Shown: positions 15,449 through 22,337, numbered from the stretch's first letter. The stretch: DNA of 64,000 nucleotides from a virus (IMGVR_UViG_2925897562_000001); one strand, 5' to 3'. Notes: a model not told the origin generated them from the sequence alone. Made by a program: numbers and translations.

Positions 15449-17860
15449 ATGAATGACGTTACAGTTGTTACATCGGTTACTTACCCATCACCCGAGTCGT
15501 TGGCTCTGGTGGCTGATGTGCAATACCACGAACCATATCTGTCAGCCGCTCTAAACCGAAAATTCAGGGGAATTGTTGACCCAGGATTTTATGCTGGTTT
15601 CTTGCCTAAGCCTGGCGGTGGAATGAACCTGTTAATCACCTCAGTGGATGGAGATAAAACCGCTGGCGCGGCGTCAGTGGATATTGGTGAATTCTACCAG
15701 GTAACTATTCAGCATCGTAAGGATATCTCTCTTGCACTTAACGCAGGCAAGAAATATGCAATTGTGCTGAAGGGAAGATACCTTCTTGGAGAAGATACCT
15801 ATCAGGTGAATACCGCGTCACATATTCATGCAGCTGAATTTGTTGCCAGAACCTATACCGATTCATATCAGTTAGGTGATGGGGAACTGCTGGTTTGTAC
15901 GGTGAATATCCCTGCTGGCGTATCTACCATTACTCAAGAGATGATTGATACATCCGAGCGTATCAACCGCACGATCGGCATTGATATTTCAGACTCTGTA
16001 ACCAGTACCAGAAGTGATGTTGCTGCGAGTTCGCTGGCAGTTAAAAAAGCCTACGATCTGGCGAAAAGCAAGTATACGGCGCAGGATGCAAGCACAACGC
16101 AAAAGGGATTAGTTCAGCTCAGTAGTGCCACTAACAGTACGTCTGAAGTGCTGGCCGCCACACCGAAAGCTGTCAAGGCTGCATATGACCTGGCTAACGG
16201 GAAGTATACAGCCCAGGATGCAACCACGACACAAAAAGGGATAGTTCAGCTCAGTAGCGACACCAACAGCACTTCTGAAACATTAGCTGCAACTCCAAAA
16301 GCGGTTAAAGCTGCATACGATCTAGCAGCCGGAAAGGCACCATCCAGTCATACACATCCCTGGAATCAGATCACTGGTGTGCCAACAGCTTCATTGACAG
16401 CGAAAGGCATCACTCAGCTCAGTAGTGCCACTAACAGTACGTCTGAAGTGCTGGCCGCCACACCGAAAGCTGTCAAGGCTGCATATGACCTGGCTAACGG
16501 GAAGTATACAGCCCAGGATGCAACCACGACACAAAAAGGGATAGTTCAGCTCAGTAGCGACACCAACAGCACTTCTGAAACATTAGCTGCAACTCCAAAA
16601 GCGGTTAAAGCTGCATACGATCTAGCAGCCGGAAAGGCACCATCCAGTCATACACATCCCTGGAATCAGATCACTGGTGTGCCAACAGCTTCATTGACAG
16701 CGAAAGGCATCACTCAGCTCAGTAGTGCCACTAACAGTACGTCTGAAGTGCTGGCCGCCACACCGAAAGCTGTCAAGGCTGCATATGACCTGGCTAACGG
16801 GAAGTATACAGCCCAGGATGCAACCACGGCTCAAAAAGGGATAGTCCAACTCAGCAGTGCTACCAATAGCACTTCTGAAACATTAGCTGCAACTCCAAAA
16901 GCGGTTAAAGCTGCATACGATCTAGCAGCCGGAAAGGCACCATCCAGTCATACACATCCCTGGAATCAGATCACTGGTGTGCCAACAGCTTCATTGACAG
17001 CGAAAGGCATCACTCAGCTCAGTAGTGCCACTAACAGTACGTCTGAAGTGCTGGCCGCCACACCGAAAGCTGTCAAGGCTGCATATGACCTGGCTAACGG
17101 GAAGTATACAGCCCAGGATGCAACCACGGCTCAAAAAGGGATAGTCCAACTCAGCAGTGCTACCAATAGCACGTCCGAAGTGCTGGCCGCCACACCGAAA
17201 GCTGTCAAGGCTGCATATGATTTGGCTAATGGAAAGCAAGCGGCAGACGCTACGCTCACTGCTCTAGCGGCACTAGCTACAGCAGCAGATAAACTCCCTT
17301 ATTTCACAGGTGTTGATCGTGCCGCGTTAACTGCATTGACAAGTGTTGGACGCGCCATTCTTGGTAAGACCAGTATTCAGAGCGTTCTTGATTACCTTGG
17401 TTTAGGAGAAGGCTCGGCGCTGCCCGTTGGTGTACCTGTTCCGTGGCCCTCAGCCACACCTCCAACGGGGTGGCTGAAATGCAATGGTGCAGCATTTTCT
17501 TCTGAAATGTACCCCAGGCTGGCAAAGGCTTATCCGACCAATAAATTACCGGATTTACGCGGTGAGTTTATCCGTGGTTGGGATGATGGGCGAGGTGTGG
17601 ATGCGGGAAGGGTCATCTTAAGCATACAGGGGTGGTTAACAGGAAGTCATTATCATAATATTCGGTCATGGGACGCGTGGGATAACACGGTATTGGTGCC
17701 AAATGACAGAGGGGGGGATAGTCTGTTGTCGACAGATAACGCCGTCCAAGAAGGAGCGATTAATGGTAAATTTACCAGTCAATACAGAACGGAGTTATCT
17801 GGGGGGAATGAAACCCGCCCACGTAACATTGCCTTCAATTATATTGTGAGAGCAGCATAA
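15449..17860 (+). CDS. S: tail fibre protein S (constant part Sc fused to the currently expressed variable cassette Sv0), 803 aa
   Basis: ATG at 15449 with AAGGA RBS; ~100-aa tandem repeats; C-terminal tail-collar motif LPDLRGEFIRGWDDGRG; HxH tip motif; crossover site inside the ORF. Confidence 0.9.
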   Translation: MNDVTVVTSVTYPSPESLALVADVQYHEPYLSAALNRKFRGIVDPGFYAGFLPKPGGGMNLLITSVDGDKTAGAASVDIGEFYQVTIQHRKDISLALNAGKKYAIVLKGRYLLGEDTYQVNTASHIHAAEFVARTYTDSYQLGDGELLVCTVNIPAGVSTITQEMIDTSERINRTIGIDISDSVTSTRSDVAASSLAVKKAYDLAKSKYTAQDASTTQKGLVQLSSATNSTSEVLAATPKAVKAAYDLANGKYTAQDATTTQKGIVQLSSDTNSTSETLAATPKAVKAAYDLAAGKAPSSHTHPWNQITGVPTASLTAKGITQLSSATNSTSEVLAATPKAVKAAYDLANGKYTAQDATTTQKGIVQLSSDTNSTSETLAATPKAVKAAYDLAAGKAPSSHTHPWNQITGVPTASLTAKGITQLSSATNSTSEVLAATPKAVKAAYDLANGKYTAQDATTAQKGIVQLSSATNSTSETLAATPKAVKAAYDLAAGKAPSSHTHPWNQITGVPTASLTAKGITQLSSATNSTSEVLAATPKAVKAAYDLANGKYTAQDATTAQKGIVQLSSATNSTSEVLAATPKAVKAAYDLANGKQAADATLTALAALATAADKLPYFTGVDRAALTALTSVGRAILGKTSIQSVLDYLGLGEGSALPVGVPVPWPSATPPTGWLKCNGAAFSSEMYPRLAKAYPTNKLPDLRGEFIRGWDDGRGVDAGRVILSIQGWLTGSHYHNIRSWDAWDNTVLVPNDRGGDSLLSTDNAVQEGAINGKFTSQYRTELSGGNETRPRNIAFNYIVRAA
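16080..17230 (+). repeat. in-frame tandem repeat, 300-bp period, about 3.7 copies, inside S
   Basis: Sequence lines 16141, 16441, 16741 and 17041 are identical; copies 1 and 2 identical over 300 bp, copies 3 and 4 differ at a few positions. Confidence 0.9.
17385..17410 (+). other. cixL-like invertase crossover site inside S (TTCTTGATTACC-TT-GGTTTAGGAGAA)
   Basis: 26-bp imperfect dyad with 2-bp core, similar to hix/gix/cix sites (hixL TTCTTGAAAACC-AA-GGTTTTTGATAA); at the Sc/Sv junction. Confidence 0.7.
17399..17860 (+). other. expressed variable cassette Sv0 (tail-collar domain plus tip, 153 aa)
   Basis: Begins immediately after the crossover dinucleotide; homologous to the 8 silent cassettes. 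Confidence 0.8.
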
Positions 17861-18471
17861 TGGATAATGCGATATTAAATAGCGAACTTATAGCCATACA
17901 GGCAGGAAACATTATCGTTTATAACTATGATGGTGGTAATCGGGAATATATTTCTGCATCAACTGAATATCTTGCTGTTGGCGTTGGTATTCCGGCAAAT
18001 TCTTGTTTGGATGCTCCAGGCTCACATAAAGCAGGTTATGCGATTCTCCGTTCAGAGGATTTAAGTTCATGGGAGTATGTGCCAGATCATCGTGGCGAAA
18101 CTGTCTATAGCATTGACACTGGGAATCCCGAAGAAATCACGGTGTTGGGTGACTATCCGGAAAATACAACCACTATCGCCCCGCTAACACCATACGACAA
18201 ATGGGATGGAGAGAAATGGGTGGTTGATACTGAGGCTCAACATAGTGCAGCTGTAGAGGCAGCAGAAACAAAACGTCAGTCATTGATTGATACTGCGATG
18301 GATTCCATTAGTCTGATTCAGTTGAAATTACGGGCTGGACGGAAGTTGACGCAGGCAGAAACCACGCAGCTTAACTCCGTGCTAGATTATATAGACGAGC
18401 TGAACGCGATGGATTTAACCACGGCACCAGATCTCAACTGGCCTGAAAAACAACTTTCTACAGCCAGTTGA
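17860..18471 (+). CDS. U: tail fibre assembly chaperone U (203 aa)
   Basis: ATG overlaps S stop; C-terminal region typical of Tfa/gpU-family chaperones. Confidence 0.85.
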   Translation: MDNAILNSELIAIQAGNIIVYNYDGGNREYISASTEYLAVGVGIPANSCLDAPGSHKAGYAILRSEDLSSWEYVPDHRGETVYSIDTGNPEEITVLGDYPENTTTIAPLTPYDKWDGEKWVVDTEAQHSAAVEAAETKRQSLIDTAMDSISLIQLKLRAGRKLTQAETTQLNSVLDYIDELNAMDLTTAPDLNWPEKQLSTAS

Positions 18472-18476
18472 TATAA

Positions 18477-18977
18477 TTAATCCGCCCTCACAATATAATT
18501 AAATGCAATATTACGAGGGCGGGTTTCTAAGCCAGCAGTACCTAAATTAGCTACGGACTGTTTATATGTTTTAAAAGTTCCATAATTAGGGGCTGGCAAT
18601 CCTGCATCGCTTGTGTTCCCCCATCTGATAACTCCCGTATTACCACTAGTAGCCCATGCCTCGTCAAAGTAGAAATTAATTGAGCGGTCAGTTGCTACGG
18701 TTGATTTTGACGGTAATCCGTGAGCATGATCCTCCGTTGCATATCCTTGCTCGCTTAAAATAGAGCGACCAGAGTCAATCCCTCGCCCATCATCCCAACC
18801 ACGGATAAACTCACCGCGTAAATCAGGTAATTTTAACGTTGGATAAACCTTTGCCAGATTTGGGTACTTTTCAGAAGAAAATGCTGCACCATTGCATTTC
18901 AGCCAGCCCGTAGGTGGTGTTTCTAAGGGCCACGGAACGGGCACGCCAACGGGCAATGCAGAGCCTTCCCCCAAACC
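18477..18977 (-). CDS. silent promoterless tail-fibre C-terminal cassette A
   Basis: Conserved N-block GEGSALPVGVPVPWP...LPDLRGEFIRGWDDGRG, variable tip with HAH, conserved C-terminus RPRNIAFNYIVRAD; in frame with crossover at 18978-18979. Confidence 0.75.
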   Translation of the reverse strand, partial: GLGEGSALPVGVPVPWPLETPPTGWLKCNGAAFSSEKYPNLAKVYPTLKLPDLRGEFIRGWDDGRGIDSGRSILSEQGYATEDHAHGLPSKSTVATDRSINFYFDEAWATSGNTGVIRWGNTSDAGLPAPNYGTFKTYKQSVANLGTAGLETRPRNIAFNYIVRAD

Positions 18978-21881: not shown

Positions 21882-21895
21882 AACGTTTCTATGCC
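21870..21895 (-). other. cix-like crossover site G
   Basis: TTCCCCCAAACC-AA-CGTTTCTATGCC. Confidence 0.7.
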
Positions 21896-22323
21896 GCTCT
21901 TACGATGTAATTAAATGCAATATTACGAGGGCGAGATTCTCTCCCCCCCACCGAGTTAGTGCTATCCGATCTCTGTTGAATTACTGAGCCAGAAACATCA
22001 GCGGCTAAAAGATAATATCCACCTGTTGTATCAAATCCAGTTTGTGCCCATGTTCTTTCGAAATAATGACTATGTGATTTAAATTCATCTGTTTGAGTTG
22101 ATAATAACGCGCGCCCACTATCCACTCCACGCCCATCATCCCAACCACGGATAAACTCACCGCGTAAATCCGGCAATTTATTGGTGGGGTAAGCCCTTGC
22201 CAGATTTGGGTACATTTCAGAAGAAAATGCTGCGCCGTTACATTTCAGCCACCCTGCTGGCGGTGTGGCTGAGGGCCACGGAACAGGCACACCAACGGGC
22301 AGCGCAGAGCCTTCCCCCAAACC
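21889..22323 (-). CDS. silent tail-fibre C-terminal cassette H
   Basis: Conserved blocks; variable tip with HSH; adjacent to outermost site and cin. Confidence 0.75.
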   Translation of the reverse strand, partial: GLGEGSALPVGVPVPWPSATPPAGWLKCNGAAFSSEMYPNLARAYPTNKLPDLRGEFIRGWDDGRGVDSGRALLSTQTDEFKSHSHYFERTWAQTGFDTTGGYYLLAADVSGSVIQQRSDSTNSVGGRESRPRNIAFNYIVRAA

Positions 22324-22337
22324 AACGTTTTAGTCTT
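22312..22337 (-). other. outermost cix-like crossover site H (cixR-equivalent), 55 bp upstream of cin
   Basis: TTCCCCCAAACC-AA-CGTTTTAGTCTT; outer half diverged because no cassette follows. Confidence 0.7.

What the first reader, a model, noticed from the sequence alone, without database searches (positions are those of the whole stretch)
17385..22337. Shufflon-like tail-fibre diversification: one expressed plus eight silent C-terminal cassettes, each behind a frame-preserving cix-like site
P1 has two alternative S tips (Sv/Sv') in one invertible C segment. Here the S gene contains a 26-bp cix/hix-like site (17385-17410) at the constant/variable junction, and downstream on the opposite strand lie eight tandem promoterless cassettes. 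Each starts with an inverted copy of the site followed by the same ~68-aa tail-collar block (GEGSALPVGVPVPWP...LPDLRGEFIRGWDDGRG), then a 60-85-aa hypervariable tip, then a conserved RPRN(I/V)AFNYIVRA end and stop. Counting from the 2-bp TT core, every cassette is a multiple of three nucleotides (501, 432, 480, 465, 507, 507, 471, 435) and in the same phase as S, so inversion between cixL and any of the eight sites gives an in-frame S fusion with a new tip. A cin-type serine invertase is encoded 55 bp beyond the last site. Nine alternative receptor-binding tips from one locus is far more than the P1 and Mu two-state switches; it resembles the multiple-inversion Min region described for plasmid p15B, with more cassettes than I recall being reported there.
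Basis: seen in the sequence. Interest (0 to 1): 0.8.

Follow-up and report, generated by a model that had tools for sequence, protein, structure and literature searches.

The report
Nine-tip tail-fibre inversion switch (Min-type)
A P1-like phage-plasmid of E. coli carries an enlarged copy of the known p15B "Min" DNA-inversion system, in which one invertase can join the tail-fibre gene to any of nine receptor-binding tips; the feature is real, but it is a larger member of a system described in 1990 and is common in sequenced E. coli plasmids.

Summary
The window has nine crossover sites with a TT core: one in tail-fibre gene S on the + strand and eight on the - strand (0.02 expected by chance). 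Each of the eight leads a promoterless cassette of collar block, hypervariable tip and conserved RPRN(I/V)AFNYIVRA end, in the same frame as S. A serine invertase gene starts 54 nt beyond the last site.

This is not merely like the p15B Min system; it is that system. The invertase and the single tail-fibre assembly protein match, residue for residue, database entries Q05517_ECOLX and TFAB_ECOLX.

Eighteen related plasmid loci show the same cassettes in other orders and orientations, always obeying the rules of an inversion-only system. Thirteen cassettes are 100% identical from the base after the TT core to the stop codon while sitting behind different left half-sites. A sister plasmid with 99% identical flanks holds all nine tips in another permutation, at least 7 inversions away.

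Nine sites allow 80,640 isomers. Six sites give 240, the figure I recall for p15B.

Novelty is low: 9- and 10-cassette versions are already in public records. One puzzle remains: the lone tfa gene flips with every inversion.

The parts
14954..14972 (+). P1 late promoter LPs (AAGTTACTT-N4-TACAAT) driving R, S and downstream genes
   Evidence: Identical -22 box and -10 to the annotated P1 LPs. Only one other late promoter is found in the window, at 23691 on the + strand.
15003..15437 (+). Gene R (tail-fibre structure or assembly protein)
   Evidence: ORF. The same protein (WP_001286325.1) precedes S in all relatives. P1 R is annotated.
15449..17860 (+). Expressed tail-fibre gene S (803 aa): constant part Sc 15449-17396, fused at the core to tip c0/T01 (17399-17860)
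   Evidence: Pfam: 9 Phage_fiber_2 repeats plus Collar. Sc is 96% identical to P1/P7 S. The tip matches short tail fibre 9cuy (E 2e-18) and the T4 gp37 collar 2xgf. This exact protein is known from one 96,658-bp contig.
17385..17410 (+). Crossover site L in S (TTCTTGATTACC TT GGTTTAGGAGAA)
   Evidence: P1 cixR read in the S direction is TTATCCAATACC TT GGTTTAAGAGAA. The EC958 Phi2 5' site is TCCTCAATTACC TT GGTTTAGGAGAA, and that site was shown to invert.
17860..18471 (+). Single tail-fibre assembly gene tfa (203 aa); its ATG overlaps the S stop codon (TAATG)
   Evidence: Pfam Caudo_TAP, E 3e-30. Exact sequence equals TFAB_ECOLX. Found 99-100% identical in 89 plasmid records.
17399..18979 (.). 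Pivot segment c0 - tfa - c1 (two convergent tips around tfa). It has no internal site, so it is never split and only flips.
   Evidence: Kept together in every locus where both its ends are held, in either orientation. Intact in 127 of 5,426 complete E. coli genomes. Predicted by the model.
18477..18979 (-). Silent cassette c1 (167 aa from the core); site s1 at 18966-18991
   Evidence: Collar domain.
18985..19418 (-). Silent cassette c2 (144 aa); site s2 at 19405-19430
19424..19905 (-). Silent cassette c3 (160 aa); site s3 at 19892-19917
19911..20377 (-). Silent cassette c4 (155 aa); site s4 at 20364-20389. This tip is rare among relatives.
20383..20891 (-). Silent cassette c5 (169 aa); site s5 at 20878-20903
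20897..21405 (-). Silent cassette c6 (169 aa); site s6 at 21392-21417
21411..21883 (-). Silent cassette c7 (157 aa); site s7 at 21870-21895
21889..22325 (-). Silent cassette c8 (145 aa); outermost site s8 at 22312-22337, with fixed left half AAGACTAAAACG. This tip is rare among relatives.
22392..22964 (+). Serine DNA invertase (Min type, 190 aa, Ser9), transcribed away from the invertible region
   Evidence: Pfam Resolvase (E 2e-51) plus HTH_7. 138/190 identical to P1 Cin. Exact sequence equals UniRef Q05517_ECOLX, seen on at least 1000 contigs.
22410..22481 (+). Presumed recombinational enhancer (sis homologue) inside the 5' end of the invertase gene
   Evidence: 58/72 identical to the annotated P1 Cin enhancer at the same gene position. 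Function is inferred.
23096..23272 (-). Pseudogene remnant of a P1-type cin 5' end, with a second enhancer-like copy and the cin promoter region upstream of it
   Evidence: 158/177 identical to P1 cin nt 1-177, with two in-frame stops; enhancer part 62/72.

Best explanation
What it is. This is the tail-fibre host-range switch of a P1-like phage-plasmid: a Min-type (p15B) multiple DNA-inversion system with nine crossover sites.

Mechanism (inferred from the Hin/Gin/Cin family). The serine invertase (22392-22964) binds two 26-bp sites in inverted orientation, probably with host Fis and the enhancer inside its own 5' end. It cuts both at the central TT and rotates the strands, which inverts everything between the two sites.

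Expression. Only the tip joined to the constant part of S, behind late promoter LPs, is translated. The other eight lack a promoter, ribosome-binding site and start codon.

Logic of the array.
- Each cassette begins with the right half-site and its collar codons, in the S frame. Each cassette ends by supplying the left half-site of the next one. Any forward-by-reverse exchange therefore gives an in-frame S with a new receptor-binding knob.
- All forward sites lie on the S side of one pivot segment (tip c0 - tfa - tip c1), and all reverse sites lie on the invertase side.
- Every allowed inversion brackets the pivot.
- The other seven cassettes can take any order on either side. This gives 2 x 8! 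= 80,640 isomers and nine S proteins.
- The eight directly repeated sites are not deleted, because this enzyme family acts only on inverted sites.

Status of the claims.
- Shown here: the anatomy, the shared frame, the family assignments, the isomers among relatives and the core-level breakpoints.
- Inferred: Fis and enhancer dependence, activity in this particular molecule, and that the tips change host range.
For: - Sites: nine, against 0.02 expected by chance, with the same phase as S.
- Domains: Phage_fiber_2 and Collar in S, Collar in the cassettes, Caudo_TAP in tfa, Resolvase plus HTH_7 in the invertase.
- Family: the invertase is 73% identical to Cin, and its 5' end is 58/72 identical to the P1 enhancer. 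The invertase and Tfa sequences equal Q05517_ECOLX and TFAB_ECOLX.
- Site class: P1 cix sites share the TT core and differ from site L by one base in the right half. In the EC958 Phi2 prophage the 5' site has the same right half as site L, and the 3' site has the same right half as six of the eight sites here. PacBio reads showed that pair inverting (PMC4134206).
- Isomers among relatives: the mapped plasmid loci carry the same 13 tip families in different orders and orientations. The pivot stays intact, forward cassettes lie on the S side and reverse cassettes on the invertase side, and eight different tips are found fused to Sc.
- Breakpoints: 13 cassette sequences are 100% identical from the base after the core to the stop codon while sitting behind Sc-type, internal or invertase-proximal left halves.
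- Sister plasmid: CP088422.1 has flanks 99.2-99.8% identical and the same nine tips at 99.6-100%. They are permuted with tfa flipped, in a legal state at least 7 inversions away.
- Model: it gives 240 isomers for six sites, the figure I recall for p15B, and 80,640 for nine.
- Silent cassettes: promoter-like sites are depleted across the scanned S-to-invertase region, 14900-23500 (5 found against 13.8 expected).
Against: - There is no read-level evidence for this molecule; a single sequence cannot show activity.
- Collar blocks are mosaic between lineages. The same tip type is 81-100% identical in the collar. Right-half variants correlate partly with position: A at +6 in 11 of 14 Sc-fused sites against 2 of 14 invertase-proximal sites. 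Homologous recombination or gene conversion among the ~225-bp collar repeats therefore also acts.
- The left halves of the eight silent sites match the family consensus poorly.
- Only one tfa exists, and it is antisense to S in 8 of 10 loci sampled without regard to arrangement. No late promoter faces it. It is unclear whether all nine fusions give working fibres.
- The original p15B papers could not be read, so the six sites and 240 isomers rest on memory plus an indirect length check.
Confidence: 0.9

Rival explanations
1. The array is rearranged by RecA-dependent homologous recombination or gene conversion between the ~225-bp collar repeats (84-95% identical), not by the invertase. On this view the 26-bp 'sites' are simply the conserved start of a repeat.
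For: Collar blocks are mosaic between lineages, and part of the collar variation follows position rather than tip. Some public records show duplicated cassettes, which inversion alone cannot produce (L001).
Against: - Thirteen cassettes are 100% identical right up to the base after the TT core while their left flanks differ completely. Homologous exchange has no homology to the left of the core and would leave chimeric collars.
- All mapped loci obey the inversion-only invariant.
- An intact invertase matching a database entry residue for residue sits next to the array.
- Near-identical sites invert in EC958 Phi2.
Confidence: 0.05
2. The array is a fossil. The cassettes are decaying duplicates and the system no longer inverts in this plasmid; the diversity among relatives is old.
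For: No direct evidence of activity exists for this molecule. Many relatives have cassettes broken by frameshifts or IS and resistance-gene insertions.
Against: - All nine cassettes here are open and end in the conserved motif.
- All nine sites keep the core and right half.
- The invertase is intact with Ser9.
- A sister plasmid with 99% identical flanks and 100% identical tips has another permutation, so the shuffling is recent.
Confidence: 0.05
3. The eight cassettes are separately expressed small 'phage tail proteins', as automatic annotation calls them, not silent gene ends.
For: PGAP annotates each as a CDS starting at the in-site TTG.
Against: - The TTG is the Leu codon of the shared G-L-G-E-G junction inside the crossover site.
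- No ATG or GTG start lies at a usable distance behind the purine-rich run (sequence).
- Promoter-like sites are depleted.
- In this window the cassettes face against the late operon.
- The same sequences occur fused in frame to Sc in other plasmids.
Confidence: 0.03

Closest known systems
Min multiple DNA-inversion system of plasmid p15B (E. coli 15T-; Sandmeier, Iida, Arber 1990-1992)
   Same: - P1-related backbone.
- Constant S 5' part joined to alternative 3' ends at mix sites.
- More than two sites, giving overlapping invertible segments.
- The invertase and Tfa sequences here equal Q05517_ECOLX and TFAB_ECOLX. I take these to be the p15B entries; that attribution is from memory.
- The invertase faces away from the segment and a cin remnant lies beyond it, as the P1 record's p15B cross-references imply.
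- The isomer formula 2 x (N-1)! gives 240 for N = 6.
   Different: Nine sites and tips here, against six recalled for p15B. The interval from the end of P1-homologous Sc to the invertase enhancer is 6,273 nt here and 4,752 nt in p15B, about 1.5 kb or three cassettes longer. Possible isomers number 80,640 against 240. Two tips (c4, c8) are rare among relatives.
Cin / C segment of phage P1 and P7
   Same: The R-S operon and Sc are 96% identical. The cix sites share the TT core and differ by one base in the right half. The invertase is 73% identical and its enhancer homologous.
   Different: P1 has two sites, two tips of about 500 aa of another fold family, and a U gene for each tip. Its cin gene faces the segment. 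Here there are nine short collar-type tips and one tfa.
Two-state collar-tip switches of E. coli prophages (e.g. EC958 Phi2; PMC4134206)
   Same: Near-identical 26-bp sites: Phi2's two right halves are those of site L and of six silent sites here. Phage_fiber_2 repeats in the constant part and a Tail Collar domain in the invertible part. Inversion was seen in PacBio reads.
   Different: Two sites and a mirror-image pair, each tip with its own downstream gene. Chromosomal prophage rather than phage-plasmid.
R64-type shufflons (Rci) and the three-tip Gin shufflon of the Enterobacter flagellar-remodelling phage (FR-phi; PMC13418256)
   Same: The logic of several alternative 3' ends for one gene, selected by multiple inversions. 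For that phage, locked variants showed that tip choice sets infectivity.
   Different: R64 uses the tyrosine recombinase Rci, sfx sites and the pilV gene. The Enterobacter phage has three tips.

Membership tests
Din-family serine invertase systems (Hin/Gin/Cin/Pin/Min) | Small serine recombinase (~190 aa): resolvase catalytic domain with an N-terminal Ser nucleophile plus a C-terminal HTH | tested here: met
   Resolvase E 2e-51 and HTH_7 E 3e-15. Ser9 lies in MQIGYIRVSTNDQ. 138/190 identical to P1 Cin.
Din-family serine invertase systems (Hin/Gin/Cin/Pin/Min) | 26-bp crossover sites with a 2-bp core, matching the family consensus and present in inverted orientation | tested here: met
   One site on the + strand and eight on the - strand, all with a TT core. 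Right halves differ by 1-3 bases from P1 cix; six of the eight silent sites have the same right half as the Phi2 3' site, and site L has the same right half as the Phi2 5' site. The left halves of the eight silent sites are weak.
Din-family serine invertase systems (Hin/Gin/Cin/Pin/Min) | Fis-dependent recombinational enhancer in cis | tested here: inconclusive
   A homologue of the annotated P1 enhancer sits at the same position in the invertase gene (58/72), and a second copy lies in the cin remnant (62/72). Fis binding and dependence cannot be tested here.
Din-family serine invertase systems (Hin/Gin/Cin/Pin/Min) | Inversion actually occurs, with exchange at the core | tested here: met
   Met by comparison only. 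Isomers occur among relatives, 13 identical cassettes sit behind different left halves, and a sister plasmid is permuted. Not testable for this molecule itself.
Min system of p15B specifically | More than two sites forming overlapping invertible segments, with several alternative 3' ends for S | tested here: met
   Nine sites and nine in-frame tips. The inversion model reproduces 240 isomers for six sites.
Min system of p15B specifically | Min invertase and the p15B tail-fibre assembly homologue | tested here: met
   Exact-sequence look-up returns Q05517_ECOLX (DNA-invertase) and TFAB_ECOLX. That these entries come from p15B is my recollection. Supporting evidence: the tfa here is 100% identical (DNA) to that of pMCR_SCKP-LL83, whose 5-kb segment is reported 99% identical to p15B min.
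Min system of p15B specifically | Six mix sites and a 3.5-kb M segment | tested here: not met
   Nine sites over 4.95 kb here, about 1.5 kb longer than the p15B interval implied by the P1 record. This is a difference in size, not in kind.
R64-type shufflon | Tyrosine recombinase Rci acting on sfx sites | tested here: not met
   The adjacent recombinase is a serine invertase.

The most novel reading that the evidence does not exclude
The Min array has grown by tandem duplication of a 'site + collar + tip + next half-site' unit into an open repertoire. Individual plasmids carry 6 to 10 cassettes, and at least 13 tip families are shared among E. coli, Klebsiella and Salmonella phage-plasmids. The single tfa at the pivot would then add a second switch. 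Every inversion flips tfa, so only even-parity isomers co-transcribe it with S. Either eight of the nine collar-type tips fold without a dedicated chaperone, or half of all isomers are deliberately non-infective. Neither possibility has been described for this system in the literature I could read.
Probability: 0.3. Interest if true: 0.55.

Novelty: new member of a known kind. Interest (0 to 1): 0.3.

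Why it matters
P1-like phage-plasmids spread resistance genes such as mcr-1 and CTX-M. Their host range depends on this tail-fibre locus. Recent surveys that I could read list it only as a "highly variable region" or score it as a defective C segment.

Recognising it as a working nine-tip Min system has several consequences:
- It explains why the region breaks long-read assemblies.
- It explains why automatic annotation litters it with "phage tail protein" genes.
- It shows that no two related plasmids will look collinear there.
- It offers a natural library of compact receptor-binding knobs on one scaffold for host-range engineering.

It does not change how these systems are understood to work.

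Tried and rejected
- Original p15B papers. I tried to read PMC53420, PMC329034 and PMC206102, and the Johnson 2015 review (PMC4384473). None is held. One literature search, for 'six crossover sites' and '240 isomeric', returned only unrelated papers.
- First sample of relatives. The five loci taken from the similarity-ranked hits (L001-L005) all had tfa in the sense orientation, which suggested a fixed tfa. That was a ranking bias. Re-sampling anchored on tfa itself showed both orientations.
- Right half-site variants. I tested whether they travel strictly with their tips. They do not across lineages, which raised the homologous-recombination rival. The exact-identity analysis then showed core-level breakpoints, so that rival was kept only as a secondary process.
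- Promoter for an inverted tfa. I looked for a late promoter facing it and found none. The sigma-70 scan was uninformative.
- Tandem Repeats Finder does not report the cassette array, because the units are too divergent and of unequal length.
- Strain AR_0372's small extra contig and odd plasmid end suggest a mixed population of isomers but do not prove one.
- A structure prediction was judged unnecessary, because sequence matches to solved fibre tips were already significant.

Full report
**What is there**

- A motif search finds nine sites and no others in the 64 kb, against 0.02 expected from shuffles.
- One site lies in tail-fibre gene S on the + strand (17385-17410, TTCTTGATTACC|TT|GGTTTAGGAGAA).
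- Eight sites lie on the - strand, with cores at 18979, 19418, 19905, 20377, 20891, 21405, 21883 and 22325.

Translating from the core gives nine open cassettes of 144-169 aa. Each has three parts:
- a collar block, 92% identical on average;
- a tip of about 55-80 aa, only 16% identical;
- a conserved end, RPRN(I/V)AFNYIVRA(A/D/T), followed by a stop.

One detail was missed. The left half of each internal site is the end of the preceding cassette (GCG GCA TAA + AAACG). The repeating unit is therefore right half-site, collar, tip, conserved end, then the left half-site of the next unit.

**Identity of the parts**

Pfam results:

| Part | Domains |
|---|---|
| S | nine Phage_fiber_2 repeats plus a Collar domain |
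| Cassettes | Collar |
| 17860-18471 | Caudo_TAP tail-fibre assembly protein; its ATG overlaps the S stop codon |
| 22392-22964 | Resolvase plus HTH_7 |

- The S tip matches solved short tail fibres and the T4 gp37 collar.
- The invertase has Ser9 and is 138/190 identical to P1 Cin. Its 5' end is 58/72 identical to the annotated P1 enhancer.
- The window is a P1-like phage-plasmid. Sc and R are about 96% identical to P1 and P7.
- The P1 late promoters LPs and LPdar are present at 14954 and 23691.

**It is the Min system**

- An exact-sequence look-up shows that the invertase and the Tfa are the proteins filed as Q05517_ECOLX and TFAB_ECOLX. I recall these as the p15B entries.
- The tfa here is 100% identical to that of pMCR_SCKP-LL83. 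The 5-kb segment of that plasmid was published as 99% identical to the p15B min region (PMC5786510).
- P1 cix sites share the TT core and differ from site L by one base in the right half.
- In the E. coli EC958 Phi2 prophage the 5' site has the same right half as site L, and the 3' site has the same right half as six of the eight sites here. PacBio reads showed that pair inverting (PMC4134206).

**Comparative test of inversion**

I fetched 18 related plasmid loci and mapped their sites, tips, tfa, Sc and invertase (mapping).

The same 13 tip families recur in different orders and orientations. Every locus obeys three rules:
- forward cassettes lie on the S side;
- reverse cassettes lie on the invertase side;
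- wherever both its ends are held, the block tip c0 - tfa - tip c1 stays together at the point of convergence, in either orientation.

Eight different tips are found fused to Sc.

These rules are what an inversion-only system predicts. Every allowed exchange between a forward and a reverse site brackets the pivot. A breadth-first simulation confirms the invariant. It gives 240 isomers for six sites, the number I recall for p15B, and 80,640 isomers with nine fused ends for nine sites.

**Where the exchange happens**

Thirteen cassette sequences are 100% identical from the base after the TT core to the stop codon, while sitting behind Sc-type, internal or invertase-proximal left halves in different plasmids. 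The breakpoint is therefore at the core, as for a serine invertase.

A sister plasmid, CP088422.1, gives the sharpest comparison.
- Its flanks are 99.2-99.8% identical to the window.
- It holds all nine window tips at 99.6-100%, plus one extra cassette (X).
- Its order is Sc-c2> c5> c1> <tfa <c0 <X <c3 <c6 <c8 <c7 <c4, followed by the invertase gene on the + strand.
- That is a legal state of the model, at least seven inversions from the window's arrangement.

**A second process**

Collar blocks are mosaic between lineages, and some collar variants follow position rather than tip. Gene conversion or homologous exchange among the collar repeats therefore also acts over longer times. It does not explain the core-level junctions.

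**How it most likely works**

- The invertase pairs an inverted couple of sites, probably with Fis and the enhancer in its own gene. It cuts at TT and inverts the interval.
- Only the tip joined to Sc behind LPs is made. The others lack a promoter and a start codon.
- Family properties explain why eight directly repeated sites are not deleted.
- Fis dependence, activity in this molecule and host-range effects are inferred, not shown.

**Unexplained**

There is only one tfa, and every inversion flips it.
- In loci sampled without regard to arrangement, tfa is antisense to S in 8 and sense in 2.
- No late promoter faces it.

Three readings remain open:
- most tips need no co-transcribed chaperone;
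- odd-parity isomers give no working fibres;
- tfa is transcribed from an unrecognised promoter.

**Comparison and novelty**

The closest known system is p15B Min, which has the same proteins and the same logic.

The difference is size: nine sites over 4.95 kb, against six sites and 3.5 kb recalled for p15B. An indirect check supports this. The P1 record's cross-references put the p15B interval from the end of P1-like Sc to the invertase enhancer at 4,752 nt, against 6,273 nt here. That is about three cassettes more.

Nine is not unique. Relatives carry 6 to 10 cassettes. The pivot block is intact in 127 of 5,426 complete E. coli genomes. Recent surveys I could read treat the region only as variable or defective.

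**Verdict**

It is a new, larger member of a known kind, and interest is modest.

Noticed in passing
window 23096-23272 (- strand), with upstream region to about 23390: Pseudogene remnant of a P1-type cin 5' end: 158/177 identical to P1 cin, with two in-frame stops. It carries the cin promoter region and a second copy of the sis enhancer (62/72). It points toward the invertase and the invertible region. The Min-type invertase seems to have replaced an ancestral cin in the opposite orientation.
   Followed up: partly
window 16114-17179: A 300-bp tandem repeat, 3.6 copies at 98% identity, lies inside the constant part of S (Phage_fiber_2 repeats). S length varies from 1,716 to 2,925 nt among related plasmids, so fibre shaft length also varies.
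   Followed up: partly
window 17860-18471, and loci L006-L015 and L019: The single tfa sits in the pivot segment and flips with every inversion. It is antisense to S in 8 of 10 loci sampled without regard to arrangement. No P1 late promoter faces it anywhere in the window.
   Followed up: partly
L008 10833-13605; L009 10382-14652; L013 7950-8654; hit H59: Resistance genes and IS elements are inserted inside the invertible region of relatives: ISEcp1-blaCTX-M-15 in a Salmonella Typhi plasmid, IS26 in two E. coli plasmids, and mcr-1/ISApl1 under hit H59. The silent cassettes appear to be a tolerated landing pad.
   Followed up: no
records CP088785.1, NZ_CP148414.1, NZ_CP142924.1, NZ_CP148330.1, NZ_CP027129.1 (L017); L018; L001: Several 'plasmid' records of 1.9-5.2 kb match invertible-region sequence; the one I fetched (L017) holds cassettes, the invertase and downstream lysis genes. 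One plasmid record ends in an inverted second copy of R, and one has cassettes duplicated in both orientations. These look like assembly artefacts of mixed isomer populations.
   Followed up: partly
L019 (CP088422.1) 35054-53265: A near-identical sister plasmid from a Korean blood isolate carries all nine window tips plus a tenth cassette, in another permutation. Several of its cassettes are broken by frameshifts, probably sequencing errors.
   Followed up: yes
window 12655-14088 and relatives: The baseplate gene upstream (bplA homologue in P1) is annotated 'bleomycin hydrolase' in RefSeq relatives. This is probably an annotation error that has been propagated.
   Followed up: no
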